The position numbers and the translations under genes are program-made. From assembly GCF_004010195.1 (NCBI RefSeq), contig NC_057755.1:7716145-7780144 (forward strand): a stretch of DNA of 64,000 nucleotides. The letters are read 5' to 3'. This stretch comes from Chiloscyllium plagiosum (lineage: Eukaryota). The notes under the pieces are model-generated. The model ran no database searches and was not told where the DNA came from. It saw only the letters and a program-made list of their open reading frames with translations. Shown here piece by piece: positions 2,441 to 63,475 of this stretch (position 1 is the stretch's first letter; every line of letters starts with the position of its first letter).

Positions 2441-2791
2441 CTGGATCAATGGTGCTGGAAGAGCACAGCAGTTCAGGCAGCATCCGAGGAGCAGCAGCAA
2501 AATCGATGTTTCGGGCAAAAGCCCTTCATCAGGAATAAAGGCAGAGAGCCTGAAGTGTGGAGAGATAAGCTAGAGGAGTGTGGGGGTGGGGAGACAGTAG
2601 CATAGAGTACAATAGGTGAGTGGGGGAGGAGATGAAGGTCAGGGAGGAGAGGGTGGAGAGAATAGGTGGAAAAGGAGCTAGGCAGGTCGGACAAGTCCGG
2701 ACAAGTCAAGGGGACAGTGCGGAGCTGGAAGTTTGAAACTAGGATGAGGTGGGGGAAGGGGAAATGAGGAAGCTGTTGAAGTCCATTTAAG
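2441..2791 (-). mobile_element. 3' end of a second Penelope-like element with hammerhead motif, nested in the first
   Basis: Minus strand contains cctgatgaagggcttttgcccgaaacatcg; flanked by direct repeat ttcagatgatt (2430-2440 / 2792-2802). Confidence 0.75.
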
Positions 2792-3632
2792 TTCAGATGA
2801 TTATCCCATCTCGACCCCTCTGTTTTTACTCTGCTCCGTAAAATTTTCACTGTTCTGTACCTCTTATTTCTTGATTGTCTCTCTTTCTCTCGCTCCCCAC
2901 TCTCTCATCACCTTTTTCCTCTCCTCTTCCCCCTTTGCTGCCCTTGTCCCCTGTTTTCCATTTTGCCTCTGCTTCACCCATCCCCCCCATCCTCCACATA
3001 TTTTGTCACAAAGCACTGGCTTCAGCCTTGCTTCACAGCTCCTAATCAACCTATAATCTCTCTATGCACTGTCACTATCACCTCTTTATTGCTACCTTTG
3101 CTTCTGGAGCCATGACTTACCTTCCCTCAGCCTGGTATAAATACCTCCCGATTTCTCCCTTTGTTTTAGCTTTGACAAAGGGTCAGTGAGACTCAGAGGG
3201 TTAGATAGGGTGGACAGTGAGAACCTTTTTCCAAGTATGGTGACGGCGAGCACGAGGGGGCATAGCTTTAAATTGAGGGGTGATAGATATAGGACAGATA
3301 TCAGAGGTAGTTTCTTTACTCAGAGAGTAGTAAGGGTATGGAAGGCTTTGCCTGCAACGATAGTAGATTTGCCAACTTGAAGTACATTTAAGTCGTCATT
3401 GGACAAGCATATGGGCATATCTGGAATAGTGTAGGTTAGATGGGCTTCAGATTAGTATGACAGGTCAGCACAACATCGAGGGCCGAAGGGCCTGTACTGC
3501 GCTGTAATGTTCTATGTTCTATGAAACGTCAGCTGTTTTCTCTCCTTACAGATGCTGCCAGACCTGCTGAGCTTTTCTAGCATTATCTCTTTTGGTTTCA
3601 GATTCCAGCATCCGCAGTAATTTGCTTTTATC
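2792..3632 (+). mobile_element. 3' UTR of the Penelope-like element, interrupted by a CR1 fragment (~3195-3522)
   Basis: Pyrimidine-rich UTR, then tttgacaaagggtcagtgagactc [CR1] gaaacgtcagct..gatgctgccagacctgctgag; uninterrupted homolog at 25866-26000 (minus). Confidence 0.7.
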
Positions 3633-3666
3633 CCTTATTTCTAAAAGCTGTTCCTTTTCTCAAGGA

Positions 3667-3894
3667 TGCTATGTCCTTGGTTTTTTTCAGAGGGGTCGTA
3701 AACACTGGTTTAGTAAAGAGATTAAAGGGTATTGAGAGGCCTTTTTGTTTATACGTAAACAGATGAGACTTCAGGCAAAAATGGTCATGTTTTAGAAGTG
3801 ACCTGCATATAATGAAAGGGGGGGTGGTCAGCTCTCTAGCAGATCAGTTCAGTTCAGTCCAGAACTAGCTGGGAGTTTAACAGTGAGCTATGTG

Positions 3895-3929
<35 letters not shown>

Positions 3930-4243
3930 GCTCTCTTCCTGCTTTTCTAACTGCAACCTGTAAGCATCTGTTCCCTTTTTTAAAATGTGTCTTAAGGGGG
4001 TTTGCTTTTTGGGTCTGTTGTGTATTTTCGGAACAGCATAATTAATTCTCGTTTGGATAGACTGAGTTCTGTAGGGGTTCTTTTTTCCTTCGTGTTTCAT
4101 TGTGTAATTTTGTGAATAAATTTCTGTCTATTTTAAAACCTAGCTAAATTACTCTGGGTAAATTCTCACTGTACACTTACTGAAATAAATTGCCATGTTA
4201 TGGGCTGGGTTGCCTGCTGAAGAATGGTTTTGAGTCCATAACA
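3667..4243 (+). mobile_element. Solo LTR (Gypsy-type)
   Basis: tgctatg...cataaca terminal inverted ends, internal AATAAA; resembles 7830-8160 and 55113-55719. Confidence 0.6.
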
Positions 4244-4559
4244 TAAGGTATGATTTGCCCAGATAGAATGTAATCAATATTTTTCACTGTATCTCATACA
4301 TGTGATAATAGTAAAACATATCAAAATCAAATCACCGAAGTAGTTTTAAAACTGCAATCTTACTGTCGAATTGTATGTCCCTCCTCCACTCAGCTGAACA
4401 TTTGACGATCTTCCATTGTACGCTTTTGGGATCACAGAAAGACACTGCACATAATAAAACAGATCATTCACTGCATAAACTGAGTAACTTTTTGAATTAT
4501 TACGCATTCCATAGTGAAGATCTGCCAACAAGACGAAAGCTGACTAGTTGATGCATATT

Positions 4560-6194: not shown

Positions 6195-7766
6195 GAGATG
6201 TACAGATACTGCATCAGGAAACAGAGCCTTCAGTCCAACTCGTCCATGCTGACCAGATATCCCAACCCAACCTAGTCCCACCTGCCAGCCCAGGGCCCCA
6301 TCCCTCCAAAACCTTCTTACTCATATACCCATCCAGATGCCTTTTAAATGTTGCAATTGTACCAGCCTCCACCACTTCCTCTGGCAGCTCATTCCATACA
6401 CGCACCACCCTCTGCATGAAAGAAATGCTCCTTAGGTCTCTTTTATATCTTTCCCCTGTCACTCTAAACCTATGCCCTCTAGTTCTGGACTCCCTGACCC
6501 CAGAGAAAAGACTTTGTCAAGTTATCCTATCCATGCCCCTCATGATTTAAAAAACCTCTATCAGGTCACCCTCAGCCTGCAACACTCCAGGAAAAACAGC
6601 CCCAGCTTGTTCAGCCTCTCCTTATAGTTCAAATCCTCCAACCCTGGCAACATCCTTGTAAATCTTTTCTGAACCCTTTCAAGTTTCACAATATCCTTCC
6701 ATCAGGAAGGAGACGAGAATTGCATACAATATTAGGTTTTTGCTCGAAATGTCGGATTTTCCTGCTCCTCGGATGCTGCCTGAACTGCTGCGCTTTTCCA
6801 GCGCCACTCTACTCCAGAATCTGCATACAATATTTCAATGTCCTAACCAGCATCCTGTAAGCCGCAACATGACCTCCCAACTCCTGTACTCAATACTCTG
6901 ACCAATAAAGAAGCACATACCAAACACCTTCTTCACTATCCTGTCTACCTGGGACACCACTTTTAAGGAACTATGAACCTGCACTCCAAGGTCTCTTTGT
7001 TCAGCAAGACTCCCTAGGACCCTACCATTAAGTATATAAGTCCTGCTAAGATTTGCTTTCCCAAAATGCAGCACCTCACATTTATCAAAATTAAACTCCA
7101 TCTGCCACTCCCTGGCCCATTGGCCCATCTGATCAAGATCCGGTTGTACACTGAGGTAACGTTCTTTGCCATCGACTACACCTCTAATTTTGGTGTCATC
7201 TGCAAACTTACTAACTATACTTCCTATGTTCACATCCAAATCATTTCTATAAATGATAAAAAGCAGTGGACCCAGCATCGATCCTTGTGGGACACCATTG
7301 GTCACAGGCCTCCAATCTGAAAAGCAACCCGCCTCCACTACCCTCTGTCTTCTACCGTCAAGCAAGTTCTGTATCCAAATGTCTAGTTCTCCCTGTATTC
7401 CATAATATCTAACCTTGCTAAGCAGTCTAACATGAGGAATCTTGTTGAACGCCTGGGAACTATAGACCAGTAGGCTTATCATCTGTGGTGGGTAATTTAC
7501 TTGAGAAGATTCTGAGGGATAAGATATACATGCATTTGGAAAATTAGGATTTGATTAGGAGTAGTCGGCATGACTTTGTGTGTGGGAGATTATGTCTCGC
7601 AAACCTCTGTCTTCTACCTTTGAGCCAGTTCTGTATCCAAATGGCTAGTTCTCCTTGTATTCCATGAGATCTAACCTTACTAACCAATCTCCCATGGGGA
7701 ACCTTGTCGAGGCCTTACTGAAGTCCATATGGATCATGTCTACTGCTCTGCCCTCATTAATCCTCT
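6195..7766 (-). mobile_element. CR1 LINE RT and 3' end, with nested hammerhead-family insertion (6734-6822) and an inverted CR1 piece (~7453-7603)
   Basis: ORF 6835-7482: NGVPQGSMLGPLLF, KFADDTK; duplication tgcatacaatatt flanks the insertion. Confidence 0.9.
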
Positions 7767-8844: not shown

Positions 8845-9050
8845 ACAAACTGACAAATCACACAACACCAGTTTATAGTCCAATATGTTTATTTGGAAGT
8901 GCTAGCTTTCGGAGCGCTGCTCCTTCATCAGGTGGGTATGGGGTATAACTACCTAATGAAGAAGCAGTGCTCCGAAAGCTAGTGCTTCCAAATAAACCTA
9001 TTGGACTATCACCTGGTGTTGTGTGATTTGTAAGTTTATCCACCCCAATC
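8845..9050. mobile_element. Head-to-head palindromic Penelope-derived short element, hammerhead family B
   Basis: aaatcacacaacacca...ccttcatcaggtgg followed by its reverse complement ...ctggtgttgtgtgattt. Confidence 0.75.
8901..8935 (-). ncRNA. Minimal type I hammerhead ribozyme motif
   Basis: ccac-CUGAUGA-a-GGAGC-agc-GCUCC-GAA-AGCU-A: intact core, 5-bp stem II, palindromic AGCU stem III. Confidence 0.7.
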
Positions 9051-9829
9051 CAACATGGGCACCTTCAAATCAAGTGCTAGTGAAACAGACTAGGCAGACA
9101 GAAAGCCAGATGGCATGTCTGAAAGGTATAAAGGCCCCTTTGTCTTCCTCCAAGACAGTACCGAACACCTAAAGGAACCTTCATTGGGTTGTGGTGCTGT
9201 CTGGATTAGTTAGATATTGTCAACATGAAGTGGACAGTCAGTCATTTTAATCATAAACAAAGAACTGGATATTGGAAATCTGAAACAAGAAACGGAAATT
9301 GCTGGAGAAACTCGACATTCTCTCTAGGGATGCGACCAGACCTGCCGAGTTAATGTTTCAAATTCAATGACCCTTCCGCAGAACTGGACTCGAAACATTA
9401 ACTCTGTCTTCTCTCCACTGTTTTCAATTAGCAACTCTTCCTGCCCCATGTTGGAGCAGGCTTTTTATCTTAATCTGCCGAATAACGTCACACTCGGGCA
9501 GCTGCACCTTTTCCAGACATGAAAATTAATCCTTGGAAATTTGCGTGAGTTATAAATTCCTCTCGTTCACCCTGTCCAACAAAAATAGGCTTGTTTCTGA
9601 GCGTGGCAACAGACCACTTTACCAAGATTCGAATGCTCAAATTGTTTCCTTCTCGAACCTTGTAGGTTTATAAAGCAATAACTGAACAGATTATCTTTGA
9701 AGCAAAAGGCAAGTGCATTATTTAACTTTAATTTGGAAAATCTGGCTCACTGCAGTGAGAATTCAATCTGTTAGGTTCCAGAATACCCTGATTAGGTGCC
9801 ACCTTGTGGCCCATGAACCAATCTACCAG

Positions 9830-11060: not shown

Positions 11061-11168
11061 AAGCAAGAAGTGACATGCAAACGCTAAAGACCATTCCAGC
11101 TGGTCTCAGCTTTCTTTCCCAAAGGCTTTTCAGTATCTCTCACTCTCACTGTCCCATGAAGGAAAGAG

Positions 11169-11376
11169 TCGAGAGTGTGGTGTTGGAAAAGCACAGCAGG
11201 TCAGGTAGTGTCCGAGGAGCAGGAGAATCGACGTTTCGGACCTATCCCTTTCATCAAGAATCGAGCTTATGCCCGAAATGTCGATTCTCCTGGTACTAAG
11301 ATGCTGCCTGACCTGTTGTGCTTTTCCAGCGCCACACTCTCGACTCTGATCTCCAGCATTTGCAGTTCTCACTTTC
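11169..11376. mobile_element. Palindromic Penelope-derived short element, hammerhead family A
   Basis: Inverted arms ggaaaagcacagcaggtcagg / cctgacctgttgtgcttttcc; degenerate duplication ccatgaaggaaagag / ccatgagggacaaag. Confidence 0.75.
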
Positions 11377-12299
11377 TCCATGAGGGACAAAGCTGGTTCC
11401 AGGATGCTGACAGGGGCAGCATGGCTGATTTGGGGAGCCTGAAAGGATCCAAACTGGGATTGAGATTCTCACAAAGACAGGAACAGACAGACACTCTCCC
11501 CAGTCAGACCATATGGCAAGAGGATAATGGCCGTTTTAAATACCCCCAGGGTCTGTCACTTAAACCCCACCTCCTCCCACATCCCATATGTGACATCATC
11601 TCGTCAGCTCCCAGTTTCCTCTACCTGGAACACACCTCCCCCAGGAATGGAACACATCAGCCACCAACTTTGTGAGATTCGAGGAGGATGTGGGAGAAAG
11701 CAACATGTTTAGCCCAGGTCTGGCCCAGTCTGTCTCTGCCCCACCCCCACTGGACCCAGACTTGGAATACACACAGACACAAACCTCAGTGCAGCCAGGA
11801 CACACTCATTTATTCCACCAATGAACACAAAGTTCTTGCAAAATTGAGCTCAAGATTTTATTTGGCACCAATTTAATGAAACTAAAACAAACAAATCAGC
11901 AAACTTGAGTTTGAGAGTTGAACAAATGATAATAAATCCATCATACAATTGAACGCGCCGTATTTACAGTTTAATTATACAAATAGACACAAGTTTGATC
12001 TTCACAAAATTGAAATGGCGGATGGAATTGAACTTAAGATGGTTAAACAAATGCACTTCATTCTGAGGAATAGGTTTAAGGATGTTTCAAGGCTGTTCCA
12101 CTTTTTCATCGATAGTTGGTGCTGGCAAGAAACCGCTTGACACAAATTGTATGAAAGATGTTTACACTCAGGGCAGTGTCAATCACTTTATAAAGTCAGA
12201 AGTCACGCGGCACCAGGTTACGCTTCAACAGATTTAATTGAAATCAGACATGTTTCCAGAGTGCTGTTCCACATCATGACTGCACACACGCCATCAATG

Positions 12300-13210
12300 T
12301 CAATTTCCCTCTGCTGAACTCTGCAAATACCATTTCCAAACACTTAGACACATACGGCCCGATCTCCCTCTGCTGGGGAGTTAAATGTTTTACATCATAT
12401 ACACACACAAACGAATGTTTTTCCCCCTCTGCCAGGGACTGTAAATATTTAACACACATACACAAACAACCATTATCTCCCTCTGCTGAGGACTGGAAAT
12501 GTTAAAGATGTTTAAACTCAGGATGTTTAGACAACCACCTGATGAAGGAGCAGCGCTCCGAGAACTAGTGCTTCCAGATAAACCTGTTGGTCTCTTACCT
12601 GGTGTTGTGTGATTTTTAACTTTGAACTCAGGGCAGTGTCAATTACAGCACACACACCACCAACAGCAATCTCCCTTCGTCACAGTCACAGTCACAGCTC
12701 AATGCCCCGTGCTGGAAATGTTTTACACACACACACACACACATATAGACACACACACACAGACTTCTCTCTGCTGGGGACTGGAAATGTTTTACACATA
12801 CACCCACACATCCACACACACACACACACATTTCTTTCTCTGCTGAGGACTGGAAATATTTTACACACACACACACTGACCTCTTTCTGCTGGAGACTGG
12901 AAATGTTACACACAGACACACACTCATATCCACACACACAGGCACACAGACACACACACACACCGACGTATCTCTGCTGTGGACTGGAAATGTGTTTTAC
13001 ACACACACACACACACACACACAGACCTCTCTCTGCTGTGGACTGGAAATGTGTTACACACACACACACACACACAAACACACATAGACACACACACACA
13101 GACACACACACACAGACCTCTTTCTGCTGGAGACTGGAAATGTTACACACAGACACACACTCACACCCACACACACAGACCTCTCTCTGCTGTGGACTGG
13201 AAATGTGTTC
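12300..13210. repeat. Compound minisatellite: ~25-30 bp core tctctctgctgnggactggaaatgt separated by variable (CA)n
   Basis: About 12 core copies, e.g. near 12476, 12764, 12833, 12879, 12969, 13025, 13116, 13179. Confidence 0.9.
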
Positions 13211-14086: not shown

Positions 14087-14333
14087 AAGTCAAGATTAGA
14101 GTGGTGCTGGAAAAGCACAGCAGGTCAGGCAGCATCCGAGGAGCAGGACAATAGATGTTTTGGGCAGGACCTTCATCAGGAACGAGCGTGTGTAACGTTT
14201 TCAGTGATGAAGGGCTCCTGCCCAAAATGTTGATTTTCCTGCTCCTCAGGTGCTGCCTGACCTGCTATGATTTTCCAGCACCACTCTTAATCTTGACTCT
14301 GATCTCCAGCATCTGCAGTCCTCACTTTCGCCT
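14087..14333. mobile_element. Palindromic hammerhead family A element in MS4A last intron
   Basis: 14-bp duplication aatctgcatgatcc (14073-14086 / 14334-14347); (c/g)tgatgaagg..aaa motifs in both arms. Confidence 0.8.
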
Positions 14334-16844: not shown

Positions 16845-17200
16845 CCCCAGAAATTGCTGGAGAAACTCTTCAGGTCTAGCAGAATCTGTGGAGAGTAAGC
16901 AGAGTTAACATCGAACATAGAAAATGTTTTTTGCTTTGACTATAATAAGAAAAAGGTTGGTATATATGCTGACGATGGGGGCATGGGAGAGGAGGAGTAA
17001 GCAACAGGTGGAGATGGAGCTCAAGAAGAGAGAATAAAGTTGAACAGACAAAGAATGGCTTATGGTCAGCCTGGAAGAATAACTAGTTTCTAATGGGGAC
17101 CAATAGTGCCTGACAATGGGTTGTTTCAGGTAGCAGCCTATGTGACAACAAGGCCTGGTGTTGGACTAGAAAAGTGGACAAGGCCAGTCATCATTGTCAG
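16845..17200 (-). mobile_element. Penelope-like 3' UTR fragment
   Basis: Shares gaaattgctggagaaact..caggtct terminus and purine-rich body with other PLE ends in the window. Confidence 0.5.
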
Positions 17201-25067: not shown

Positions 25068-26283
25068 GTCATAGAGATGTACAGCATGGAAACAGACCAT
25101 TCGGTCCAACTTGTCCATGCCGACCAGATATCCTAACATAATCTAGTCCCATTTTCCAGCACCTGGCTCATATCCCTCCAAACCCTTCCTATTCATATAC
25201 CCATCCAGATGCCTCTTAAATGTTGCAATTGTACCAGCCTCCACTACTTCCTCTGGCAGCTCATTCCATGCACGCACCACCCTCTGTGTGAAAAAGTTGC
25301 CCCTTAGGTCTCTTTTATATCTTTCCCCTCTCACTTTAAACCTTTGCCCTCTAGATCTGGACTCGCCCATCCCAGAGGAAAGGCTTTGTTTACTTATCCT
25401 ATCCATACCCCTCATGATTTTATAAACCTCTATGAGGTCACCCATCAACCTTCGCTGCTCCAGGGAAAACAGCCCCAGCCTATTCAGCCTCTCTCTATCG
25501 ATCCACTCCTCCAATCCTGGCAACATCCTTGTAAATCTTTTCTGAACTCTTTCACGTTTCACAACATCCTTCTGGTAGGAAGGAGACCAGAATAGCATGC
25601 AATATTCCAAAAGTGGCCTAGCCAACCTCTCAACTCCTGAACTCAATACTCTGACCAACAAAGGAAAGCAGAACATTTATCTGAATTAAACGTCATCTGC
25701 TACTCCTCAGCCCATTCGCCCATCTGATCAAGGTCCCATTGTAATCTGAGGTAACCTTCTTCACTGTCCACTACACCTCCAATTTTGGTGTCATCAACAA
25801 ATTTACTTACTATACCTCTTATGTTCATATCCAAATAATTTATATAAATGATGAAAAGTAGTGGATAAAAGCAAATTACTGCGGATGCTGGAATCTGAAA
25901 CCAAAAGAGAAAATGCTGGAAAATCTCATTAGGTCTGGCAGCATCTGTAAGGAGAGAAAAGAGCTGACATTTTGAGTCTAACTGACCCTTTGTCAAAGCT
26001 GTAGTGTGTAGCTGAAAAGTAGTGGACCCAACACCAATCCTTGTGGCACTCCATTGGTCACAGGCCTTCAGTCTGAAAAACAACCCTCCACTACCACCCT
26101 CTGTCTTCTACCTTTGAGCCAGTTCTGTATCCAAATGGCTAGTTCTCCCTGTATTCCGTGAGACCTAACCTTGCTAACCAGTCTCCAGCGGGGAACCTTG
26201 CCAAATGCCTTACTGAAGTCCATATAGAACACGTCCACCACTCTGCCCTCATCAATCCTCTGTTACTTTTTCAAAAAACTCAA
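25068..26283 (-). mobile_element. CR1 LINE with nested hammerhead-family insertion (25866-26012)
   Basis: ORF 25143-25676 CR1 C-terminus; 14-bp duplication tgaaaagtagtgga flanks the insertion. Confidence 0.9.
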
Positions 26284-28029: not shown

Positions 28030-29195
28030 ATGGGCAAATGACGGCAGGACCCTGGGGATCACTAAGTTTTAAAGGAACCTGGGTGCTCATTTACCTTGCA
28101 TAAAATGGCAAAGAAAGCAAACTTACCCTTAGTAGTCGACAACATAGAGTTTAAGAGCAAGAAGGTTATATTTGAACTTCACAAAATGTTGGTTCAACCA
28201 CAGTTAGAGTATGGTGAGCAGTCCTGGAATCCACATGGTAGGAGGGATACGATAGCAGTGGGGAGAGTGCAGAGGAGATTTACCAGGATATTGCCTGGTG
28301 TGGAACAGAAGAGTTTTTCCAGGATGTTGCCTGATCCAGGGCAGAGGAGGTTTTCAGGATGTTGCGTGGGCTGGAGCAGAGAAGATTTTCCAAGATGTTG
28401 TCTGGTCTGGAGCAAAGGAGATTTAGCAGGATGTTGCCTGGTCTGGAGCAAAGGAGATTTACCAGGATATTGCCTGGTCTAGATCAAAGGAGATTTACCA
28501 GGATGTTGCCTGGTCTAGATCAAAGGAATTTACCAGGATGTTGCCTGGTCTGGAGCGAAGGAGATTTACCAGGATGTTGCCTAGTCTGGAGCAGAGGAGA
28601 TTTACCAGGATGTTTTCTGGTCTGGAGAGTTTCAGTCCTGAAGAGAGATTGGACAGACTGCAGTTGTTTTCCATCGGTCACAGAGGTACACATCTCTGAG
28701 ATATATAAAATTATGATGGCAGGGAGAAACTTTTCCCCTTATGGAGGGGGTTCAATGACCATGAGAATCGATTGAAGGTAAGGGGCAAGAGATTCAGAGG
28801 GGATGTGGGGAATTTAGATGAGAATGGTCTTGGAAAAGCACAGCAGGTCAGGCAGCATCCGAGGAGTTGGAAAATGATTTCCCTGCTCCTCTGCTGCTGC
28901 CTGACTTCTGTGCTTTTCCAGCACCACTCTGATGTTGACTCTGATTTCCAACATTGGCAGTCCTCACTCTTGGGGAATTTATTTTCACCCAGAGGTGGAG
29001 GGTATCCCGAACTCATTGTCCGTAAGGGTGGTCAAGGCAGAAATACTCATCACATTGAAGAAGTATTTAGGTATACACTAGCGATGCAGTAGTAGGCAAG
29101 ACTAGGATTCAAGTGCTGAAAAATGGGATTGGAATAGATAGGTATTTGACTGGCATCAACGTGATGGGACGAAGGACATTTTCCTGCAAACCTCT
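28030..29195 (+). mobile_element. Old CR1 fragment with internal 36-bp tandem array and hammerhead-family insertion (28817-28970)
   Basis: LVQPQLEY..W.P..RRFTRILPG; 11-bp duplication tggggaattta flanks the insertion. Confidence 0.85.
28270..28628 (+). repeat. ~10 x 36-bp minisatellite cagaggagatttaccaggatgttgcctggtctggag
   Basis: Directly visible tandem copies; unit encodes CR1 QRRFTRMLPGLE. Confidence 0.95.
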
Positions 29196-36800: not shown

Positions 36801-37515
36801 TATTTAGTTAAAATAAAACAAAGAACTGCGGATGCTGGAGATCTGAAACAAAACGATGAGGAGTCACCTGATTCAAAAAGTTAACTTTGCTTTCTCCCCA
36901 CAGCTGCTGCCAGACCTGCTGAGTTTCTCCAGAAATTTCTGGTTTTGTTGCAAACTCTTCGTGTCTGTCCTCTCGGTAAAAGACACAACAACCGTCACAT
37001 CGATAACAGAAAAGGCACTGCCTCTTTACCTGAGATCCTTCACCCCACCTCACTCTGTGCGTCTCTCTCTCTCTATTTATATATATGTATCTGCCACCTC
37101 ACTCTGAGCATCTCTCTCTATATCTGCTTTCTCACTCGGTGCATCTCTACCGCCTCACTCTGTACATCTATCTTGCGTCCTTACTTTGTGCGTCTCTCTC
37201 TGTCTAAACTCCGCGCCCCGATTCATTCTGTGTCTCTACCACCTCACTTATTCACCTTTTCTTCTGTCTTGCCCTGCTATCCATAATCTCCTTGTTTGCC
37301 TACAACTTTCATATATTTTTTGCTGCCTGTGCTCAGACTCCACGTGTCTGTTAATCTCTCCCTTTACACCTGCTCTCTCAACTTTAGCTTTTTCCGAGTT
37401 ATTAACAGCTCAGAATATGAGTCACTGGACTCAAATGTTGACTTTGCTTTCTTAGAACATTTCTTTGGCCCTCGATATTGCGCTGACCTGTGAACTAATC
37501 TAAGACAATCCCCCT

Positions 37516-37770: not shown

Positions 37771-38879
37771 TTCTTTGGTTAGATGCTGCCAGACTTGCTG
37801 AGCATCTCCAACAAATTTTGCTTTTGCTTCAGATCTCCGGCATTATCAGTTCTTTGTTTTAATTTGTGAGAAATGGATAGAGTCTAGCAGAGGGAGAACG
37901 TTACTGTTAAAAGAGACTCTGTGTGTGAGAGAGAGAGACAGAGACAATGTGTGTGTGAGAGAGAAGACAGAGAGCTACAGATAGAATCCAGCAATGGATA
38001 ATTGTTCGAAGGGGAGTGTGAGTGAGTGTGTGTTTGTGCATGTGTGTGTGATACAGATATAGTCCAGCAGAGGGAGACTGTTACTGCTGAAGGGGACTGT
38101 GTATCGAATTTAAAGGTAAAGTCACCCCATACCAACGTGCTGCTCTCTCATCAGATACAACTGTTTGTGATTTAACCCGAGGGTGACCACGCCTCAGAGG
38201 ATGAGAGCGATTCAGAAGGAGGAACCTTCATGGTGACCTCAGCCAGGGCAGGAATTAAACTCACACGGTCACCGTCATTCTATGTCAGCAGCACCAGAGC
38301 CAACTGAGCATCGCTCTCTATCGACCCCTTCCCTCTGTCCATCTCTGTTTCTATCCATCTAACAAACCTCACTGCATGTGTCTTTCTCTCTCTATCTGTT
38401 TCAGTGTCTTGGTTTTCTTTGTCTCCACCCGTTCCTGTCTGACTTCGGCAGCCTTTCTCTCTTTTCTCTTTGTCTTCTCTACCTCTCACACATTCTCGGT
38501 GGTAGCTTCTCTGTCTCCCTCTCTTTGTCTGTCTCTGACTGCTTCCCTCCTTGTCTCTGTCTCTTGCAGCCTCACATCGTGTCCTCCTCTCCCTTGTCTC
38601 CCTTTGCCCTTTCACACTGTTCTGGTCTTCTCTCAGTCGCACATTCACAAATCTGACTCAGTGGGTCTGTTTTAAACAAAACCTCAGCTTTTCCACAATT
38701 ACTGTGATAGTTCTGCCCATTACTGCAGAGCAGACGGCTCAATGAAAACAAACAAACACATCCTTCATCAAAACACTTTTAAAAACCAGTGACCTTTCTC
38801 ATCACTAGGTGGTTACCAAGTTCCACAGGTTTCCCCTCCTCATTCCATTCTTCATTTCATTTTCACTAAGGCAGCAAAT

Positions 38880-39579: not shown

Positions 39580-40680
39580 AGTCAGAGAGATATACAGAAC
39601 GGAAACAGACCCTTCCATCCAACTGGTCCATCATGATTAGATATCCTAACCTAATCTAGTCCCATTTGCCAGCACTTGGCTCATATCCCTCAAAACCCTT
39701 CCTATTCATATACCCATTCAGATGCCCTTTCCTCTGACAGGTCATTCCATACATGCACCACCCTCTGCGTGAAAAAGTTGCCCCTTAGATCCCCTTTAGA
39801 TTTTTCCCCTCTCATGCTAAAACTATGCACTCCAGTTCAGGACTCCCACACCCCAGGGAAAAGATGTATATTTATCCTGTCCATGCCTCTCATGACTTTG
39901 CAAAACCTGTAAAAGCTCACCACTCAGCCTTCAACCCTCCAGGAAAACAACTGCAGCCTATTCAACCTCTCTCTATAGACCAACTCCTCCAAATCCTGGC
40001 AACATCCTTGTAAATCTTTTTGGAACCCTTTCAAGTTTCACAACATCCTTCTGATAGGAAAGAGACCAGAACTTTACACAATATTCCAAAAGTGGCCTAA
40101 CCAACATCCTGTGCAGCCGCAACATGACCTCCCAAATCCTATACTCAATTTTGATGAAGGCTTTTTGCCTAAAACGTCGATTTTCCTGCTCCTCGGATGC
40201 TGCCTAATCTGCTGTGCTTTTCCAGTACCACACACTCCACTCCTATTCTCAATGCTTTGATCTATAGAGGAAAGCAAATCAAGTGCCTTCTTCGCTATCC
40301 TATCTACCTACAACTCCATTTTCAAAGAACTATGTTCAGCAACATTTCCCAGGATCTTTCCAGTAAGTGAATACATCTTGCTCTGATTTGCCATTCCAAA
40401 ATGCAGCACCTCACATTCATGTAAATTAAACTCCATCTGTCACTCCTTAGTCCATTGGCCCATATGATCAGGATCCCATTGTACTCTGAGGTAACCATTA
40501 CACTATACTCTACACCTCCAAATCTGATGTCATCTGCAAACTTACTAACCATATCTCTTATGTTCACATCCAAGTCATTTATGTAAATCACAAAAATCAG
40601 TGGACCCAGCACCAATCCTTGTGGTACAGCACTGGTCACAAGCCTCCAGTCTAAGAGGCAACCCTCCACCACGACCCTCT
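39580..40680 (-). mobile_element. CR1 LINE with nested hammerhead-family insertion (~40150-40240)
   Basis: SAVPQGLVLGPLIF..KFADD; duplication tcctatactcaat / tcctattctcaat. Confidence 0.88.
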
Positions 40681-44429: not shown

Positions 44430-44656
44430 TAGTCAAGAGTGTGGTGCTGGAAAAACACAGCAGGTCAGGCAGCATCCAAGGGGCAGCAGAATCGATGTTT
44501 TGGGTAAAAGTCCTTTTTAGGGATTAATTCCTGATGAAGGTCTTATGCCCGAAATGTCGATTCTCCTGCTCCTCGGATGCTGCCTGACCTGCTGTGCTTT
44601 TCCAGCACCACACTCTCGACTCTGATCTCCAGGATCTGCAGTCCTCACTTTCTCCC
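44430..44656. mobile_element. Palindromic hammerhead family A element
   Basis: ~100-bp inverted arms; cctgatgaaggtcttatgcccgaaatgtcga at ~44530-44560. Confidence 0.8.
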
Positions 44657-45622: not shown

Positions 45623-46269
45623 GTACAATCACTCTGCCCCTGTTATAACCTGTACCACATCCTGTTGACGATTTACCCGTGCACTCATTGCTCTACATTG
45701 CTTTACTATTTGTACAATTAGCTGTAAGGTCTGTAACATCTCCATTAGATCTCCCTGAGTTCCTTGCTCGATCTACAAGCTGTAACTTGAAACTGTTCTC
45801 TTCAACTCAACGTTTCCTGCTCTATCCTAATATCTCATGTGCCTTTATCCGCAATATGCCTGCATGAAGATTGCTGGAAAAACTGAGCAGGTCTGGCCAC
45901 ATTTGCGGACCAAAGTCAGAATTAACATTTCACGTTGAGTGAACCTTTCCTCAGAACTGGGTGATACATTGACCTGATTTGATCTTACTTTCATAAGATA
46001 CTGTTAAATATGTCTGTGTGTTCCAGCTTAGACTATGAAATATCATTCAGGTGTCTTTAATACCATACTTGGCCTTAACTGCAATGTGCGCAACATAAAC
46101 ATTGAGAGAAATGAGGTGGGAAGACCCAATTAAAACAATCATTGTCCTGACCAAAGTACATCCTCAGCATGGCTTCATTATAACATTTTTCCCTTCTGGA
46201 GAGCCAAACAGAAAACCACATTCAGACATGTTTTTTCAAGGACTGTCCCTAGATTATGTCTCATTTAGA

Positions 46270-48625: not shown

Positions 48626-50439
48626 GTTGCAAATAATAGTAAGTCTGTAAGTCCTTCTCAGAGAATATCTTTTCTTTGATCTTGACGTGTGGTGGTTATT
48701 CCAAATGTTCCTATCTAAGAATCAAAATGACTTTGCTTTAACTGTTCAAATTCAATGTCGGCTTATATGGCCGTTCCCTTAAGCTGCAGAACGTTAGTAT
48801 AATTTATAAACCAATTCACACACACTCAGAATAGACTTTGTTACTGCATATTAATAACCCTGTGAAGGATCCTCTAGTAGTGAGGCACAAACCTCATGTG
48901 TTCTACCTATCAACCTGCTCCACATGGGCAGTTGAAACTTTATTGCTGGAACAGCACAGCAGGTCAGGCAGATGCTGCCTGACCTGCTGTGCTGTTTCAG
49001 CAATAAAGTTTCAACTTTGATCTCCAGCATCTGCAGACCTCACTTTCTCCACACGGGCAGTGACCAGTTCACCTTCAGCCATTTCATTTTCTTCACTATG
49101 TTGTCAAATGACAAAAAATATCTCAACATCCTTTGCCACAAACTTTGGTTTGGCCTGTTGAAATGTAAACAGCTCCTTTCTGGACGTTAGGCTATGCCTT
49201 GGGTTTTACCTCACAGTGTTCTTCTGCAGCTGATGTCTATATTTTATACTGCAGCCCTTGAGGTTGGCAGTCCCTATCTCTTTCCTATATTCCATTTTAA
49301 AAAAAACTCTCTTATTTTCTATCACTTCTCTTTGAAGTTAAAGAATTTCTCAAATCCTTATTCTATCTCCATCCTTTCCAATTCCAATACTTCCTTTATC
49401 TTTTTCCCATTTCTCTGCTCTTTGGAAGGCTATTTATAACTGTTTCATTTCTTCATCATGTTTAAACTACTTTCAGTAACTTCTTCACAGACAATTCCAA
49501 TGACTCGCTTATTCGAGTGTGTGATCCCTCATATTGCACACATTCCAAATGCTTTCACAAAATTTCAATCATCTCTTGTCATTGCACCTGCAAATCAGTC
49601 CAAGTTACCTCCTCCTCCTGCTGTATGGATTTAGCTGCTTCCAATGTCATCTTATGTTTAATACAAGAAACCTGGTCTGTATATTTTTGTTCCTCAACAA
49701 TTACTCACCCCACATTGTCCACATTCAGAAATACATCACACAGCCTCCAAATTTTTGTCACAAGTCTAATAGATAAGAGTGCACAGATAACCAAGCGTAA
49801 TGTATTTGTACATATAAGCTGTTGGGACTATGTCCTCAGTCCCATATTCCTGATCACATTTGACTCTCTTGTAGATAAAAATCTAACCATTTCCAATTGA
49901 AAAATATTCAGTCTCCACTATTCATGAGCTATTACAAATGTATAAATATGTTATATACATTATAAACATTTACATATTCATCCTGTATGAACAACTAATT
50001 GAATGACAAAATGGTTAAATTACCGATCGAGGGCAAAATAAACAGGTGATTTCATAAATAAAAACTGAAACAAAATAAACAAACTTTAACAAGTGACAAG
50101 ATGGATGAACAATAACTAAAATGAAAACTGAAGTAATATCCTCTTTAATCTAATCTAATCTCAAATATACACACAAATAATATAGACAAGTGCAACAAAT
50201 TGGCCAAACATCATCTATCTTTGCTTCACATTATGTGCATTTGGATACAGGACCTTTAGTTTTAATTTTGTAATTTCTAGCTTTTTCTGTTGATTGATTT
50301 ATTCTTAAATTTGAACTATCTGACTCTTTCCATCATAGTCTATTTCTCATATAAAGACTGTTCTCTCTTGCCTTTTCCTGACACTTTGACTTATCACATC
50401 CACTAATACTTAATCACTCCTCTCACTATTTATATTCAC

Positions 50440-55818: not shown

Positions 55819-55906
55819 CTGGAACAGATCAAATACAGCCATAAATTAGATCGAAGTAATCGTTCAATAATCATTGACAAATATTACCCAGAAGATAAAC
55901 ACTCAC

Positions 55907-56074: not shown

Positions 56075-57985
56075 CTGGATAGAATGGAAACAGAAATGAA
56101 AAGAATCAAAGTCAACCTTCAGTGTTCATTAAAACCACTAGCATTGAGTATAGTAATAGTGTGCAGCTTTTGTTAGTAAAACAGATACTTTTAAAGTGTC
56201 TATTTAAATCAATTCTTGATAGGAATCACTATGTACAGTATGACTGTTATGACATAGGGTAAACTCTCCTGCTTAATTTAAACCAGCACCACAGAAAACA
56301 TTTATCCCGTGCAGTAATTTGCAAAAATTCGAGAGGCCAAGAACTATTTAAAGTAAACATGAACAACTTTATTTCTTAAAGTAATACAGAGAATGATTAA
56401 CTAACAACTATTTACAACTCCTTCCTCTAACCTATCTTTTACTTTCCCTTTCTACAATACTAGCCCGATAAAACACCCGATTAAGATTTACAAAACAAAA
56501 TTCCTTATCTCAAAACCAGGCAGCTTTCGGTTCTTCTGTATTCCTGTCTTCTTTCTTCTTCTGGTGGGGGGGTGTGGTTCTACTCCACAGGTTACTGAGC
56601 TTTCTTTTCTAGGCAGGGTGTAGATGTTGTTGGCTTGGCAGTTCTTCTCTCAACTGTCCAATCCTCCACGGTCTTATACCCCCAAAGCATCGGATTGTGA
56701 CATTGGCTTTTAAGATTGTCAACATACTAAATTCAAACTTGATTGGGATTTGGTACTTTCGTGGTATAATTTAAACTGATTGGTCGAATTTGTTTTTGTT
56801 TCATAGCAACTCAGCCAGTGCTACCTGCTCTGAACCAAACATTACATCATAAATTCTCCAGCACTCGGTGTGCTTACCAAGTCCTTCGCTCTCTTAAAGG
56901 TACAGTACACTTCTACACCTTCATAACACCTCCCCCTTTAAGAAAAAAATGAACCATCAAATCTCATTTAAACCCTATCGGTTAAATCCATGATAACGCA
57001 TCTGCGATTACATTCTTACGACCTGCAACATGTATGATTTTTAAATTTAAAGTCTGTAACATAAGACTCCAACAGAATAGTCTCATATTCCTGTCTTTAA
57101 AGCGTTCTAAGAATGTAAACGGATTGCGATCTGTGTACACAACCGTCTCTGACACATTGTTCGTGACATACACATTAAAATGCTGTAAGGGCAGTACCAA
57201 ACTCAATCGCTCCTTTTCGATTGTGGAGTATTACCTCTGGGGGATGTTGATCTTCTTCGAAAAGTAACCAACTGGCAGTTCAATCCCATCCTCATCTTCC
57301 TGAAGGAGTACCGTTCCAACTCCAACGTCACTAGCATCGATGGCGACTTTAAAAGGTTTTGAAAAGTTTGGTGTAGCTAAAATTGGTTTGGTGGTTAATA
57401 TGTTTTTCAAATGGTTGAATGTCTCCTGGCATTGTCCTGTCCACCAAAACTTTTGTGTTCTTCTTCAGCAAATCGGTTAACAATGCTGCTATACTTCTGA
57501 AGTTTGGAACAAATTTCGATAGGATCCGCTGAGTCCTAAGAATCGAAGTACCACTTTCTTCAAGGTTGGTCATGGAAATTCCTCGATGGCCTTCGTCTTT
57601 GCATTCCGTGATGTTAACCTTCCATGTTGTGCCCCAAGAACGTCACTTTTGCGTTTGTGAATTCAGTTTTGTTTAATTTTATCACAAGTTTTGTTTCTCC
57701 TAGACGCCCAAAGAACTCTGCCAATCCAGGATTTCCAACACCTCTTCTCTACATACCTCAAAGCCATCCATTCTACTTATTTGTGACTCAGTATTCACAT
57801 CGACGACAATGCCCTGTTTCTCCTAGACGCCCAAAGAACTCTGCCAACTGTACCATGTGATCTTTCCAGGACTTACTAAAGATCACTACATCATCCAAAC
57901 AGATTGCACAGTTTGTTGACCCAGCCACAACTCTGTTCATGAGTCTTTGGAATGTGGCAGGTTACAAATGCAGAAATTTATTTCG

Positions 57986-58220
57986 GAGAAAGTGAGGACT
58001 GCAGATGCTGGAGATCAGAGCTGAAAAATGTATTGCTGGAAAAGCGCAGTAGGTCAGGCAGCATCAAGGAGCAGGAGAATCGATGTTTCGGGCATAAGCC
58101 CTTCTTCAGGAATGCCTGCTTGGCACACCCTCCTCATTCCTGAAGAAGGGCCTGAAACGTCGATTCTTCTGCTCCTTGGATGCTGCCTGACCTGCGGCGC
58201 TTTTCAAGCAACACATTTTT
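57986..58220. mobile_element. Palindromic hammerhead family A element inside the Gypsy RT
   Basis: 15-bp duplication cagaaatttatttcg (57971-57985 / 58221-58235). Confidence 0.85.
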
Positions 58221-59027
58221 CAGAAATTTATTTCGTCAACTCCGATAAAGGTACCTGCCAATAACCACACATTAAGTCCAATTTGGTGATGTAACTGGCT
58301 TGTCCAACTTTCTCAATACAGTCCTCCAATCTAGGAATTGGACATGAGTCCAATTTTGTTGCGGTGTTGACCTGCCGATGATTCACGCAGAATCTTTGAG
58401 CCCTGTCCAGTTTGGGAACTAAGGTGCTCAGCGAACTCCATTGCTCTGGCTTGGTTCGATGATGTCCTCGTCGAGCATGCCCTCCACCTCTATCTGGCAC
58501 AGTATGGCTTTGAAAAGGTTAGGCTGATTGCAGTATTCCCTATATCTACTTCATGCAACACTAGCATTAATCCTTCCCACCTGATTCTTACATCGGTCCT
58601 TATACTGCAGTAACAAATTTTTTAAACTGCTTTCTATTTTCCTGAGACAGATAGCTTACTAGCCTATCCCACTCCTCAAGGTCTTCTTCATTTTTTAATC
58701 TATTTGGAGGCACATCAAAATCCACACCATCTGGATTTGATTCCTCACTCTGCGGGCCAGTAACTAACACCTGTTTCTCCAGTTCGTTCTCTTGAGTATA
58801 ACACGGTTTCAACATGTTCACATGACGTACCTGATACCTTTTTATTCCAATCTGGCAGCTTTACTGGATAGTTCACCTGACTCAACTTCTTCTCAATTTG
58901 ATAGGGACCACTAAACTTGGCTTTGAAGGGATCTCCTATCACTGGTAACCATACCAACATGTTATCTCCTTGGGAAAACGTCCAAGTCTCAGTGCTTTTA
59001 TCTCACCTGTTTCATTCTATACTTTTT

Positions 59028-59328: not shown

Positions 59329-62300
59329 AATACTGTGCCCTCTTTAGGTGCTAGTTAGCTAACTCACCTAGTCTATTTAATCTCTACCTCACCCCTGATA
59401 CATACCTAAGTGTGATATCTCTGATTTTGGTCTTGTCAATTTTTCTTTAATTAATTTCAAAGGGCCTCCCACTTCATGACCGAAAATTAACTCAGAGAGA
59501 GAGTAGTGTGTAGATTCATTTGGGGTATCTCTAATGGCAAACAATATGAATGGGATACCTCTACCCAATTATTCGGGTAATCCTGACAGTATGCTCTCAA
59601 CATGGTCTTTGAGGTCTGATGCCACCTTTCTAAAGCTCCCTGGGATTCAGGACGAGATGCACTGGATTTAAGGTGCTTTATACCTAAGCTATCCAGAACC
59701 TCCTTAAACAGCCTTGGAGTAAAATTTGACCCTTGCTTCGAATGAATCTCTCTGGGTAGCCCGTACCGTGTGAAGAAAGCTACTAACTCCTCTACCATCT
59801 TTTTTTGTCTTGACACTCCATAATGGAATTGCCTCTGGAAATCTGGTAGACACATCCATTATGGTTAACAAGTACTGGTTCTCACTTTTAGTTCTCAGGC
59901 GGGAGGGCTACACAATCAATTATAACCCACATGAAAGGTTCTTCAAATGTGGGAATTGGCAACAAAGGTGCTGGTTTTATTACCGCATGTATGGCAAAAG
60001 TAAACCACATCCTTGTGCATTCCAGGCCAGTAAAAACGTTTTTGTACCTTAGTCTGAGTCTTTCGTATACCTAGGTGACCTCCTACAGGTAGTTCATGTG
60101 CTACCCGTAATATCTCCTACCTATATGCTACCGTCAACCCAATCTGGTGCACTTCGGCCATTACTTCTCTGCACTAACCTGCAGAGGAGGTCTCTACTTC
60201 TGCCTTAGCATTCTAACTTTCAGATAATAACCCTCTGGAATAATCTCTGCCTCCTTTTCAGAGTATGCATCCACATATCTATCTTTTATCGCCTTGTCTT
60301 GCTGTTGTAAGTCTCTTAGTCTTTAAGGACTAAACACTTCTGTCTGACTCTCTGCCTGTTCAGGTTTTCCCTGCACCATTACATCAAATAGGGTGTCTGC
60401 TAACTGAACCTCAACTCCTTCATCTTTCTCTTTCTTCTCACTTGGTGCTGTGACTTCTGATAGTGGGATCTGGTTACCACACAGCCTAGGAAGATACCAA
60501 GGTATTACTCGTCAGTTTCTTGGTCTTCCATGGGCTTCTTTACAACAAAGGGTGTCACTCCCACCTTGGATCCTGCCAATTCATTCAAAGAACAAACTGA
60601 ATTCCTGGAACTGACACTCTGTCAATCACTCCCACTGTATCTTTTCCAGTCTGGAGTTGGCACTCCAACCTGATCTTACATAGGGGAACATTAAATTTCT
60701 GTCCATCTATCCCACAAATTACCACACTCTCAGATAACAGGTCAGAAAGAGTGTATATTTGCTAAATCCCTTACAATCAGCGACTAGTTAGGTCCTGTAT
60801 CTCTCAAAATTATAACTTCTTGTCCTTCTCCCCCATTCTTTCTGACCCACGTTACCCACAGACACGAATTCTTTGTAGAGATCAGATACTAACTCCATAC
60901 CAGCTCCCGCCTAGCTTGTGCACTCTCCTGCAGCTTCTTGGCTCTTCTTGTGGTCTCCTCTTCTTTCTACACTGATGCCACTGGCTTAGCTTCTCCTACC
61001 ACGTTTTTGCCCACAGTGCCTTTCTTTAACGACTAGCACTGTGTCTTTACGTGTCCCACTTTGCCACAGTGGAAACCTGAGGCCTTTCAACTCCTATCCA
61101 CCCTCTTGGACTTCTTTTTTATCCTGAGGTAAATTCTTACCAGTGCTCTCTACTCTTGGTTTAGTAGTGTAGGATCTCCCCTTTTCCCAACTTCTATCCC
61201 TCACAGGATGAAATTCTGCCCGGAAGTTTGTCTTATGCAGCAACATGTACTCATCTGCTAATTCTGCTGCTCTTCTCACTTCCAGAACTTTCTGTTCTTC
61301 CACATGAATTCTTACCATCTCTGGAAGTAAATTTTTAAACTCCTCCAGCAGAATAATCTCTCTGAGAACCTCAAAGGTCTTATGTATTTTCAAAGCACAT
61401 ATCAATCCATCAAAATGACCATGTTGAATTCCTTCGAACCCAACATAAGTCTGACATGGTTCCTTCTTTGTGTTTCTGAACGGCTGTCTATATGCTCTGG
61501 TACCAATTCTTAAGCACTTAAAAAAGCCTGTTTAATCGCTTCATAATCTCTTGACCCCTCACCCAATAATGCCACAAATATCTCACTAACTCTGCCTACC
61601 AGTTTAATTTGAACCATCATTACCCATAAATCCTCGGATTACTCCATTTACCTAGCCAATTTTTCAAATGAAATAAAGAAGGCTTCAACAAAATGTGGCA
61701 GAGTTTTGACATACTTATATATATCACTAACATTTTTTTAATCTCTGTCCTGTTAACTTGACTTTGCCGACTAAGTCGCAACTTCTCAAGTTCAAATTCT
61801 CTCTCTTTCTGTTTGGCTGAGAACTTTCTCTATCTTTTTCCTTTCTCTCACTCGCTTCTCTCTCTCTCTTCCTCCCCCACCTCTTTTCTTTCTTTGTTTA
61901 TTTTCTGACTCCATTTTCCTCAATTGTAATTTTAAGTTTTTATACCTCGATTGCACTTGTCTGTTTCTCTGACACACCGAAGTGTTTGAGTAAATTCCTG
62001 ATAATTTCAGCTTTACTTTTGTCCTTGGATAAACCCAATCCTGATAATTTCAGCTTTACTTTTGTCCTTGGATAAACCCAAATCTAACTTATTTGCTAAT
62101 TATAAAAGCATGGCCTTTTTCTTTCCTAACAAACTTTCTTGGCAAATTTGAGAATCATCTTCAAGTACCAGAACTTTTTTGCAATTTTCTGAGCCATTTC
62201 GCTCACCTTTAATTTAATCAACCACAAGTCACCGAAAGTAAACAAACTGCCTCACTTACATTTTATTTAAAGATCTAGAACACAAACCTGCAAGTGTTTA

Positions 62301-62363
62301 AATCTGCTGGGAATTTTCGTAGCCCCAAATCTATCCAAATCTGTCTAAACCAGTTCAAGTTTG

Positions 62364-62642
62364 TGGGTGGCACAGTGGTTCGTACTGCTGCCTCACAGCG
62401 CCAGAGACCTGGGTTCAATACCTGCCTCAGACAACTGTCTGTGTGGAGTTCGCACATTCTCCCAGTGTCTGTGTGGGTTTCCTCCGGGTGCTCCGGTTTC
62501 CTCCCATAGTCCAAAGATGTGCAGGTCAGGTGATTTGGCCATGCATTAGTCAGAGAGAGGGGTGGGTTACCCTTCGGAGGGTTGGTGTGGACTGGTTGGG
62601 CCGAAGGGCCTGTTTCCACACTGTAGGGAATCTAATCTAAAA
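62364..62642 (+). mobile_element. HE1 SINE next to the Gypsy PBS
   Basis: A/B boxes, aatctaatcta tail. Confidence 0.9.
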
Positions 62643-63475
62643 AAATCATGGACCCGAACCCCCAAAACTGTTATGATATGGGGTAAACTCTCCTGCTTAA
62701 TGTAAAAGCGACAACACAGAAAAGATATATCCCGTGAAATAATCTGTGAAAATTTGAGAGGCCAAGAACTATTTAAAGTAAAAATTAACTACTTTATTTC
62801 TTAAAGCAAAACAGAGAATAATTAACTAACAACTGTTCATAACTCCTTTCTCTAACCTATCCTTTAGTTTCCCTTTCCTCAATACTAGTCCGATAAAACA
62901 CCCGATTAAGATTTACAAAACAAAACTCCTTATCTCAAAACCAGGCAGCTTTCGGTTCTTCTGCATTCCTGTTCTTTTCTTCATCTTGGGGAGTGTGGGG
63001 GGGGACTGAAGGGCTCCTGACTGAAATGTCAACTTTCCTGCTCCTCGCATGCTGCCTGACCTGCTGTGCATTTCCAGCACCACTTTAATCTTGACTCTAA
63101 TCTCCAGCATCTGCAGTCCTCACTTTCCTATTGGCAGTTCTCCTCTCAACTGTCCAATCATCCTCAGTCTTATATCCCTAAAGCATTGGATTGTGTAATC
63201 GGCTTTTAAGATTGTCAATATCCTAAATTCAAACTTGATTGGGATTTGATATTTTCAGGGTATAATTTAAACTGATTGGCTGAACTCGAATTTGTTTTTG
63301 TCTCATAGCAACTCAGACAGTGCTATCTGTTCTGAACCAAATGTTACTTTGTAAAGTCTCTAGCACTCGGTGTGCTTGCCAAATCCTTCACTCTCTTAAA
63401 GGTACAGAACACTTCTACACCTTTATAACAATGATATCAATTTGCAGAAAGACAATTACAGAGTCTGGTACTTAC

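What the first reader, a model, noticed from the sequence alone, without database searches (positions are those of the whole stretch)
2441..63130. Dispersed families of hammerhead-ribozyme-bearing Penelope-derived mini-elements
Seen: at least four short repeat families share a CUGANGA-stem II-GAAA core with different, covarying stems. Family A: ctgatga-a-gggc-tttt-gccc-gaaacgtc (near 2505-2535, 14160-14230, 40150, 44530, 58085-58160, 63007). Family B: cac-ctgatga-a-ggagc-agc-gctcc-gaaagcta-gtg (8901-8935, 8950, 12537, 35580). Family C: agtt-ctgagga..gaaa (near 9350-9400, 29860, 45930). Family D: U3-A8 variant (3167, 25965). Stem III is a 4-nt palindrome (ACGU or AGCU) directly before an NUH triplet. 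Established: Penelope-like elements carry minimal type I hammerheads thought to cleave as dimers. Inference: these are non-autonomous ribozyme-containing retroelements mobilised by the PLE RT/GIY-YIG seen at 1256-2436. Many copies begin at or near the ribozyme.
Basis: partly seen in the sequence, partly recalled or inferred. Interest (0 to 1): 0.75.

Follow-up and report, generated by a model that had tools for sequence, protein, structure and literature searches.

The report
Run-off stubs of shark Penelope retrotransposons
These short ribozyme-bearing repeats are real and very abundant, but they are the end pieces of ordinary Penelope-like jumping genes, likely made when copying starts just inside the element's RNA and runs off its front end, sometimes jumping onto another RNA end, which would record a still-unexplained step of how these elements copy themselves.

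Summary
All four motif families lie at the stated places and covary as minimal type I hammerheads; 53 strict motifs in 774 kb of random genome against 1-6 in shuffles. None in the window is intact. Each family is the terminal unit of an RT/GIY-YIG Penelope-like element; the ORF at 1256-2438 belongs to family D only. Short and ORF-linked copies are intermixed, so no separate non-autonomous family is shown. Copies start at the base of stem I (91 of 201), not at the cut (15 of 201). Inverted pairs are long-tail plus short-tail in 42 of 47, never long plus long. In 11 of 30 long D loci a 3'-cut-off ORF is joined to a unit starting at or near that base; 8 of 11 carry target duplications. This suggests run-off at the RNA 5' end followed by template jumps (inferred). 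The general kind is published, and this scan noted it 144 times on other DNA; two look-ups found no note on the jump chimeras.

The parts
1256..1807 (.). Rearranged RT part of a family D Penelope-like element: two pieces on the minus strand, one (about 1713-1805) on the plus strand
   Evidence: RVT_1 E=1.4e-7 on the matching stretch of sister copy L006
1808..2438 (+). 3' part of the family D ORF: thumb end, CX4CX2C linker, GIY-YIG, stop; frameshifted
   Evidence: GIY-YIG below cut-off on sister copies; no Pfam hit on the window pieces themselves
2441..2790 (-). 5'-truncated family A1 element (ORF end, UTR, hammerhead, short 3' end) inserted behind the D stop codon, flanked by an 11-bp duplication
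2790..3633 (+). Family D UTR, U3-A8 hammerhead and long tail; ribozyme split by a CR1-type insert at 3193-3523
6735..6823 (+). A stub starting in stem II
8855..9072 (.). Family B head-to-head pair (short-tail minus arm, long-tail plus arm)
9266..9386 (-). Family C stub, core mutated
11165..11383 (.). Family A head-to-head pair
12531..12622 (+). Family B solo stub with 8-bp flanking duplication
14101..14327 (.). Family A head-to-head pair
16848..16908 (-). Family C stub starting near the cut
25862..26000 (-). Family D solo stub from the base of stem I to the long tail end, 14-bp flanking duplication
28821..28968 (.). Family A head-to-head pair whose arms both start at the predicted cut (the only such pair among the window's A pairs)
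29788..29975 (.). Family C head-to-head pair
30942..31034 (+). Old family C stub
34761..34855 (+). Family A solo stub from the base of stem I to the short end
35524..35607 (-). Family B solo stub, 10-bp flanking duplication
36812..36947 (.). Decayed family C inverted pair
37781..37863 (+). C/D-type tail-only stub
40152..40239 (+). Family A solo stub
44440..44655 (.). Family A head-to-head pair
45870..45959 (-). Family C solo stub
48930..49053 (.). Family A head-to-head pair starting downstream of the ribozyme; near-perfect hairpin
57985..58223 (.). Family A head-to-head pair
63007..63125 (+). Family A solo stub, long tail

Best explanation
The repeats are the terminal hammerhead-plus-tail unit of at least four autonomous endonuclease-bearing Penelope-like retrotransposon families, and the short copies are likely dead run-off products of those elements rather than a self-spreading family. 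Inferred working: the element's RNA begins at the first base of hammerhead stem I. The element's RT, primed on nicked host DNA, starts inside the uncut RNA at one of two sites, about 62-65 or about 98-104 nt past the predicted ribozyme cut (about 52-58 and 90 in family B). It reaches the RNA 5' end after only 95-140 nt. That short cDNA then (i) integrates alone, (ii) is joined head to head with a second short cDNA begun at the other start site on the other strand, or (iii) jumps onto an RNA 3' end or back into the RNA and goes on copying. Shown: the anatomy, the link to ORFs, the end positions, the chimeras and their target duplications. Inferred: the RNA start, the priming on the 5' copy, the jumps, the two-strand priming. 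Untested: self-cleavage.
For: ORF link: D in 26 of 29 loci; A1, A2/A3 and one each of B and C by tblastn, two more B loci by reading frame. Two 3' ends about 35 bp apart: 15 short, 12 long, 2 earlier among 29 A1 loci (counted by eye). 5' ends in the random sample: 91 of 201 within 9 nt of the stem I base, 7 in the next 66 nt upstream, 29 further up, 15 within 5 nt of the cut, 59 elsewhere downstream. The peak appears in all four families although the distance to the cut differs. Of 11 D loci whose 5' unit runs on into the ORF, 5 start at -25 to -41. In 11 of 30 long D loci the ORF breaks off at scattered points (element 1062-2086) and meets a unit starting at -33 to -35 (one at -43), six with A-rich linkers. 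8 of these 11 are bracketed by a duplication of 8-15 bp, against 0 of 110 mismatched flank pairs. Only 1 of 11 breakpoints is followed by GT, so splicing is unlikely. Two such joins in 29 A-type loci. 346 direct tandem A joins genome-wide, control 0; about 20 of the 100 listed show an extra G before the restart (by eye), as a copied cap would give. TATAAAT lies 30-34 nt before the stem I base in 31 D copies. Contigs from runs of other coded organisms show the same boundary and three ORF-to-start joints. Pairs: 42 long+short, 0 long+long, 5 short+short of 47; 9.4 long+long expected. In vitro, an anole PLE starts RT at two internal sites, extends both strands, needs sequence downstream of the start sites and copies uncut RNA (PMC11167929).
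Against: No RNA start was observed: the raw reads gave no pile of molecule starts, at low depth. The share of copies passing the boundary is similar in the random sample (36 of 127 arms that reach it) and among full-length 5' ends (3 of 8), which also fits a structural stop. Family A has TTATCT, not a TATA box, at the -32 place, and C shows no clear spacing. The extra-G test on my other loci was inconclusive (G in 6 of 24 D and 3 of 45 A rows, with native rows mixed in). The tandem-join pattern found 0 for family D, and some A tandems could be later slippage. One A cluster of 9 copies holds short copies only. Over all loci, short copies were nearer to short copies (A 73 vs 20, D 23 vs 9), though that set is biased by my searches. 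3 of 11 full-length D starts lie downstream of stem I, one exactly at the cut. No full-length 5' end was reached for A, B or C. The anole element is a Poseidon, these have the Neptune/Nematis linker.
Confidence: 0.7

Rival explanations
1. Ordinary 5' truncation with a hot spot: RT starts on the 3' copy of the unit and is often stopped by the folded or protein-bound ribozyme at the base of stem I, so the boundary is a structural stop and not the RNA start.
For: The boundary tracks the ribozyme structure in all four families. Similar pass-through rates in random and full-length copies. Upstream of the boundary, truncation is continuous, 2-519 bp.
Against: RT has already unwound stem I 3' arm, stem II and the core when it reaches that base. 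The chimeras continue from it onto scattered, often A-tailed ORF ends. A TATA box sits 31 nt upstream in D. Extra G in about 20 of 100 tandem joins (by eye).
Confidence: 0.15
2. One reading: independent non-autonomous, retrozyme- or SINE-like mini-elements that are transcribed on their own, processed by dimeric hammerhead cleavage and mobilised in trans by PLE proteins.
For: Short copies far outnumber ORF-linked ones and have target duplications (13 of 62 vs 4.1%). One 9-copy A cluster is short-only. Tandem retrozymes derived from pLTRs are described in vertebrates (bioRxiv 10.64898/2026.07.22.740005). pLTRs can act in trans in rotifer (PMC3846280).
Against: Short and UTR-bearing copies are intermixed (p=0.225; three of four large clusters hold both). 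All 42 long/short pair signatures differ. Copies lack the upstream promoter-like region, start before the cut rather than at it, are dispersed rather than tandem, and mostly carry CpG-type breaks in the ribozyme.
Confidence: 0.1
3. For the inverted pairs only: one cDNA folds back (self-priming) and copies itself, and the endonuclease trims the tail from one arm.
For: Arms of young pairs are nearly identical and share rare variants in L139 and L187. Self-priming was proposed for head-to-head PLE palindromes (PMC3846280). It also predicts no long+long pairs.
Against: The short-tail arm reaches 9 nt or more further 5' than the long-tail arm in 13 of 42 pairs, the reverse in 10; a copy of the long arm cannot exceed it unless the centre was later deleted.
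Confidence: 0.3

Closest known systems
Minimal type I hammerheads in pLTRs of metazoan PLEs (Cervera and de la Pena 2014, PMC4209133)
   Same: No stable helix III, palindromic 15.2-16.2, extra base before stem II, G10.1-C11.1, short helix I, U3-A8 variant, several consensus families per genome, mostly dispersed single motifs ascribed to truncated PLEs, pairs on opposite strands.
   Different: The parts read name no cartilaginous fish; counts there are thousands per genome, here 23 intact motifs and 201 arms per 774 kb (roughly 1e5 intact and 9e5 arms if extrapolated). 5' ends were not mapped there.
Canonical EN+ PLE insertions, Neptune/Nematis type (PMC8557442, PMC3846280)
   Same: RT followed by CX2-5CxxC linker and C-terminal GIY-YIG; heavy 5' truncation; adjacent inverted copy; optional 30-40 bp tail at one end; variable target duplications; TATA and Inr-like motifs in a pLTR.
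   Different: Here most insertions are only the 95-140 bp terminal unit with a fixed start, and chimeras of a 3'-cut-off ORF with that unit occur; the passages read do not describe these.
Anole Poseidon PAc in vitro (Frangieh et al. 2024, PMC11167929)
   Same: Two internal RT start sites bounding the tail; uncut RNA as template; both strands extended.
   Different: Other clade; ORF start there lies in the ribozyme, not determined here; fate of the cDNA at the RNA 5' end was not followed there.
Animal non-LTR retrozymes (bioRxiv 10.64898/2026.07.22.740005)
   Same: Type I hammerhead, pLTR origin, non-coding.
   Different: Retrozymes are tandem arrays of full units; these are dispersed solos and inverted pairs that stay linked to ORF-bearing elements.

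Membership tests
EN+ Penelope-like element | RT plus C-terminal GIY-YIG in one ORF | tested here: met
   RVT_1 above cut-off and GIY-YIG below cut-off on family D and A1 pieces; Atlas nearest clusters GIY-YIG/HTH_animal; order RT then EN. B and C: only the EN end seen.
EN+ Penelope-like element | Terminal repeat at both ends of full-length copies | tested here: met
   Family D: unit precedes the ORF in 11 of 30 loci and follows it in 26 of 29; about 3.2 kb cut to cut. Not reached for A, B, C.
EN+ Penelope-like element | Optional 30-40 bp tail, inverted copy at the 5' end, target duplication | tested here: met
Neptune or Nematis clade | CX2-5CxxC linker before the EN, two cysteines between GIY and YIG | tested here: met
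   Seen in A1 and D translations; definition from PMC8557442
Neptune or Nematis clade | Placement in an RT tree | not tested
   No reference proteins on hand; Neptune is assumed because it is the vertebrate clade with this linker
Minimal type I hammerhead | Core, stems I and II with covariation, palindromic stem III | tested here: met
   23 intact in the random sample, 0 in the window
Minimal type I hammerhead | Self-cleavage as a dimer or with protein | not testable with these tools
   Co-folding does not give the double-hammerhead as the lowest-energy form; 5' ends are not enriched at the cut
Non-LTR retrozyme | Tandem arrays of at least two full ribozyme-bearing units | tested here: not met
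   Window and random copies are solos or inverted pairs; the 346 tandem joins repeat only the first 30-55 nt
Non-autonomous SINE/MITE-like family | Own lineage with fixed ends and junctions | tested here: inconclusive
   Fixed ends yes; own lineage not shown (p=0.225; one short-only cluster); pair junctions all differ

The most novel reading that the evidence does not exclude
Penelope-like elements replicate through an LTR-retroelement-like strong-stop step: RT primes near the 5' end of a capped RNA that begins at hammerhead stem I, runs off, and must transfer to an RNA 3' end to finish. The roughly one million stubs, strict long+short head-to-head pairs, ORF-to-start chimeras and stuttered tandem joins in this genome are the fossil record of failed and aberrant transfers by a dimeric, telomerase-related RT.
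Probability: 0.45. Interest if true: 0.72.

Novelty: new member of a known kind. Interest (0 to 1): 0.42.

Why it matters
The finding as written is a published phenomenon in a new host. What could matter is the end map. How PLEs turn an internally primed cDNA into pLTR tandems, inverted copies and a one-sided tail is open. This genome gives fixed, countable predictions: RNA start at stem I, uncut template, template transfer, one long and one short priming site per inverted pair. These can be tested with the existing in vitro PLE assay and with 5'-end sequencing. It also warns annotators that such stubs mimic SINEs, MITEs and miRNA hairpins.

Tried and rejected
Rfam: no hammerhead family matched; best hit mir-15 at 48936-49010 is below its gathering score and is an A pair. 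Pfam and PDB on the window's own ORF pieces: nothing. A fuzzy motif scan timed out with no output. Splice-acceptor origin of the D chimeras rejected: 1 of 11 GT, linkers not templated, no AG at the A junctions. Later insertion of a stub into a D element rejected: the ORF does not resume and outer flanks are duplicated. Ribozyme-cut RNA as template or jump acceptor: not enriched (15 of 201 starts; only a few of 100 tandem joins break at the cut, by eye). Apparent arm-to-arm differences were edge effects. The all-loci nearest-neighbour test is biased by targeted searches and was redone on the random sample plus window. The tree label count failed on a wrong method name and was not repeated. Walks to the A1 5' end ran into assembly gaps and truncation. 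Sequencing runs: no RNA holder listed; one raw run laid 123 reads, the other none, no start pile. Family C loci L091-L120 were chosen with a palindromic query and were not used for pair counts.
Full report
Setting. The window lies on a chromosome-scale contig of a 3.56-Gb genome rich in CR1-type RT fragments. A cartilaginous fish is my inference from recalled repeat content and from earlier scan notes; it was not tested. Positions below are counted from the predicted ribozyme cut.

1. Observation. All listed copies exist; the window holds 31 arms. A strict minimal-hammerhead descriptor gives 53 hits in 773,598 non-N bases from 80 arbitrarily placed 10-kb stretches, against 1-6 in five shuffles. 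Majority types per family differ in stem I, stem II, the 3-8 pair (C-G in A, B, C; U-A in D) and the stem III palindrome (ACGU, or AGCU in B). On 13 hand-picked A, C and D copies, 91.5% of cells pair and 21 change on both sides, with 0 of 500 shuffles as high; the number of pairs with such a change (6) was reached by 124 of 500. B was dropped from that count for misalignment. The random sample has 23 fully intact motifs and the window none; CpG-type changes dominate, as expected of neutral decay.

2. Whose ends are they. The ORF end at 1808-2438 is followed by a UTR and the family D ribozyme in 26 of 29 other copies, in one more through an inverted copy, and in two not at all. In the window an A1 element inserted behind its stop with an 11-bp duplication, and a CR1-type piece split the D ribozyme. 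Upstream of the A1 ribozyme lie a UTR and a GIY-YIG ORF end, with 5' extents spread from 2 to 519 bp. A tblastn links A2 and A3, one B locus and one C locus to GIY-YIG ends; two more B loci show the EN end in frame. RVT_1 passes its cut-off and GIY-YIG scores below it. A CX4CX2C linker points to Neptune or Nematis. Full-length D is about 3.2 kb and carries the unit at both ends.

3. Ends. 3' ends fall at two sites about 35 bp apart, the known tail. Of 201 arms in the random sample (hits with 5' end at or before +40 and 3' end at or after +45; the other 43 of 244 random-sample hits were dropped), 91 start within 9 nt of the first base of stem I, 7 in the next 66 nt, 29 further up, 15 within 5 nt of the cut and 59 elsewhere downstream. 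Unknown UTR variants could inflate the peak, mostly for C and D, whose references are few. But 13 of 62 solo copies in that class have flank duplications of 7 bp or more, against 4.1% in mismatched pairs, and many others abut an inverted arm. Of 11 D loci whose first unit runs into the ORF, 5 start at -25 to -41, 3 extend into the UTR, and 3 start at -16, +1 and +14.

4. Pairs. Of 47 head-to-head pairs (random sample plus window), 42 are long+short, none long+long and 5 short+short; 9.4 long+long were expected. All 42 end signatures differ. The short arm reaches further 5' in 13, the long arm in 10. Young arms are near identical and two pairs share rare variants, so fold-back remains possible.

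5. Jumps. In 11 of 30 loci picked by a D ORF probe, the ORF breaks off at scattered points and meets a unit beginning at -33 to -35 (one at -43); six have A-rich linkers. Eight are bracketed by 8-15 bp duplications, against 0 of 110 control pairs, so they are single insertions. Splicing does not explain them. Two of 29 A-type loci show the same join. A genome-wide pattern finds 346 direct A joins in which the first 30-55 nt are repeated, control 0; the pattern forces the restart to include -31, but most rows go no further up. About 20 of the 100 listed have an extra G before the restart (by eye). The same pattern for D found none, and the extra-G count on other loci was inconclusive. TATAAAT lies 30-34 nt upstream of stem I in 31 D copies (overlapping loci not removed); A has TTATCT at 30-32 nt; B 31-37 nt in 7; C is unclear. 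Reads and contigs from other coded organisms show loose ends at -35, +64/65 and about +100, and three joints from the ORF back to the start, but no pile of molecule starts; they may be transcribed genomic copies.

6. Independent family? In the random sample plus window, 61 short and 30 UTR-bearing A copies are intermixed (same-label neighbour share 0.596, null 0.554, p=0.225); one cluster of 9 is short-only. The biased all-loci test leaned the other way.

7. Mechanism. Shown: sections 1-6. From the literature: internal two-site priming, both strands extended, uncut template, need for downstream ORF sequence (PMC11167929). Inferred: the RNA starts at stem I; priming on its 5' unit gives a 95-140 nt cDNA that integrates alone, pairs head to head, or jumps. 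How the regular UTR-bearing copies arise (priming on a read-through 3' unit or a homologous jump) is not resolved. A role for cleavage is neither seen nor excluded.

8. Literature seen. PMC4209133: parts 1-2 of 4. PMC11167929: parts 1-2 of 4. bioRxiv 10.64898/2026.07.22.740005: parts 1 and 3 of 5 and a term search. PMC8557442, PMC2377424, PMC3846280, PMC6155905, PMC8857657: passages only. No supplements were read; those of PMC4209133 and the preprint may list shark motifs. D. virilis Penelope has an internal TATA-less promoter, unlike the reading for family D. Searches returned no paper on strong-stop transfer in PLEs or on shark PLE hammerheads; template jumps are mentioned once for rotifer PLE inserts. 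The library lacks most subscription papers.

9. Verdict. Observation confirmed, interpretation partly supported, new member of a known kind; interest 0.42, carried by the jump evidence.

Noticed in passing
window 63472-63831 (-): Open frame with leucine-rich repeats resembling an exon of an NLR-type host gene (resemblance recalled).
   Followed up: no
window 59487-61531 (-): Frames resembling gag and integrase pieces of a Gypsy-type LTR retrotransposon (resemblance recalled).
   Followed up: no
window 48936-49010: A-family inverted pair scores 53 bits against Rfam mir-15, below the gathering score; such stubs can mimic miRNA hairpins.
   Followed up: partly
G000:C6:10710400-10710611; L335, L342, L346: Three to five head-to-tail repeats of the first 40-55 nt of the A unit; repeated re-copying or the seed of a retrozyme-like array.
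   Followed up: partly
window 28821-28968; L216: Rare copies that start exactly at the predicted cut: both arms of this pair and one full-length D 5' end.
   Followed up: partly
window 2441; L182, L229, L212, L228: Family A copies often sit inside other PLE copies; probes were PLE-centred, so a target preference is not shown.
   Followed up: no
L066, L078: Family B has a long UTR (over 500 bp) holding CA-type microsatellites between the ORF end and the ribozyme.
   Followed up: no
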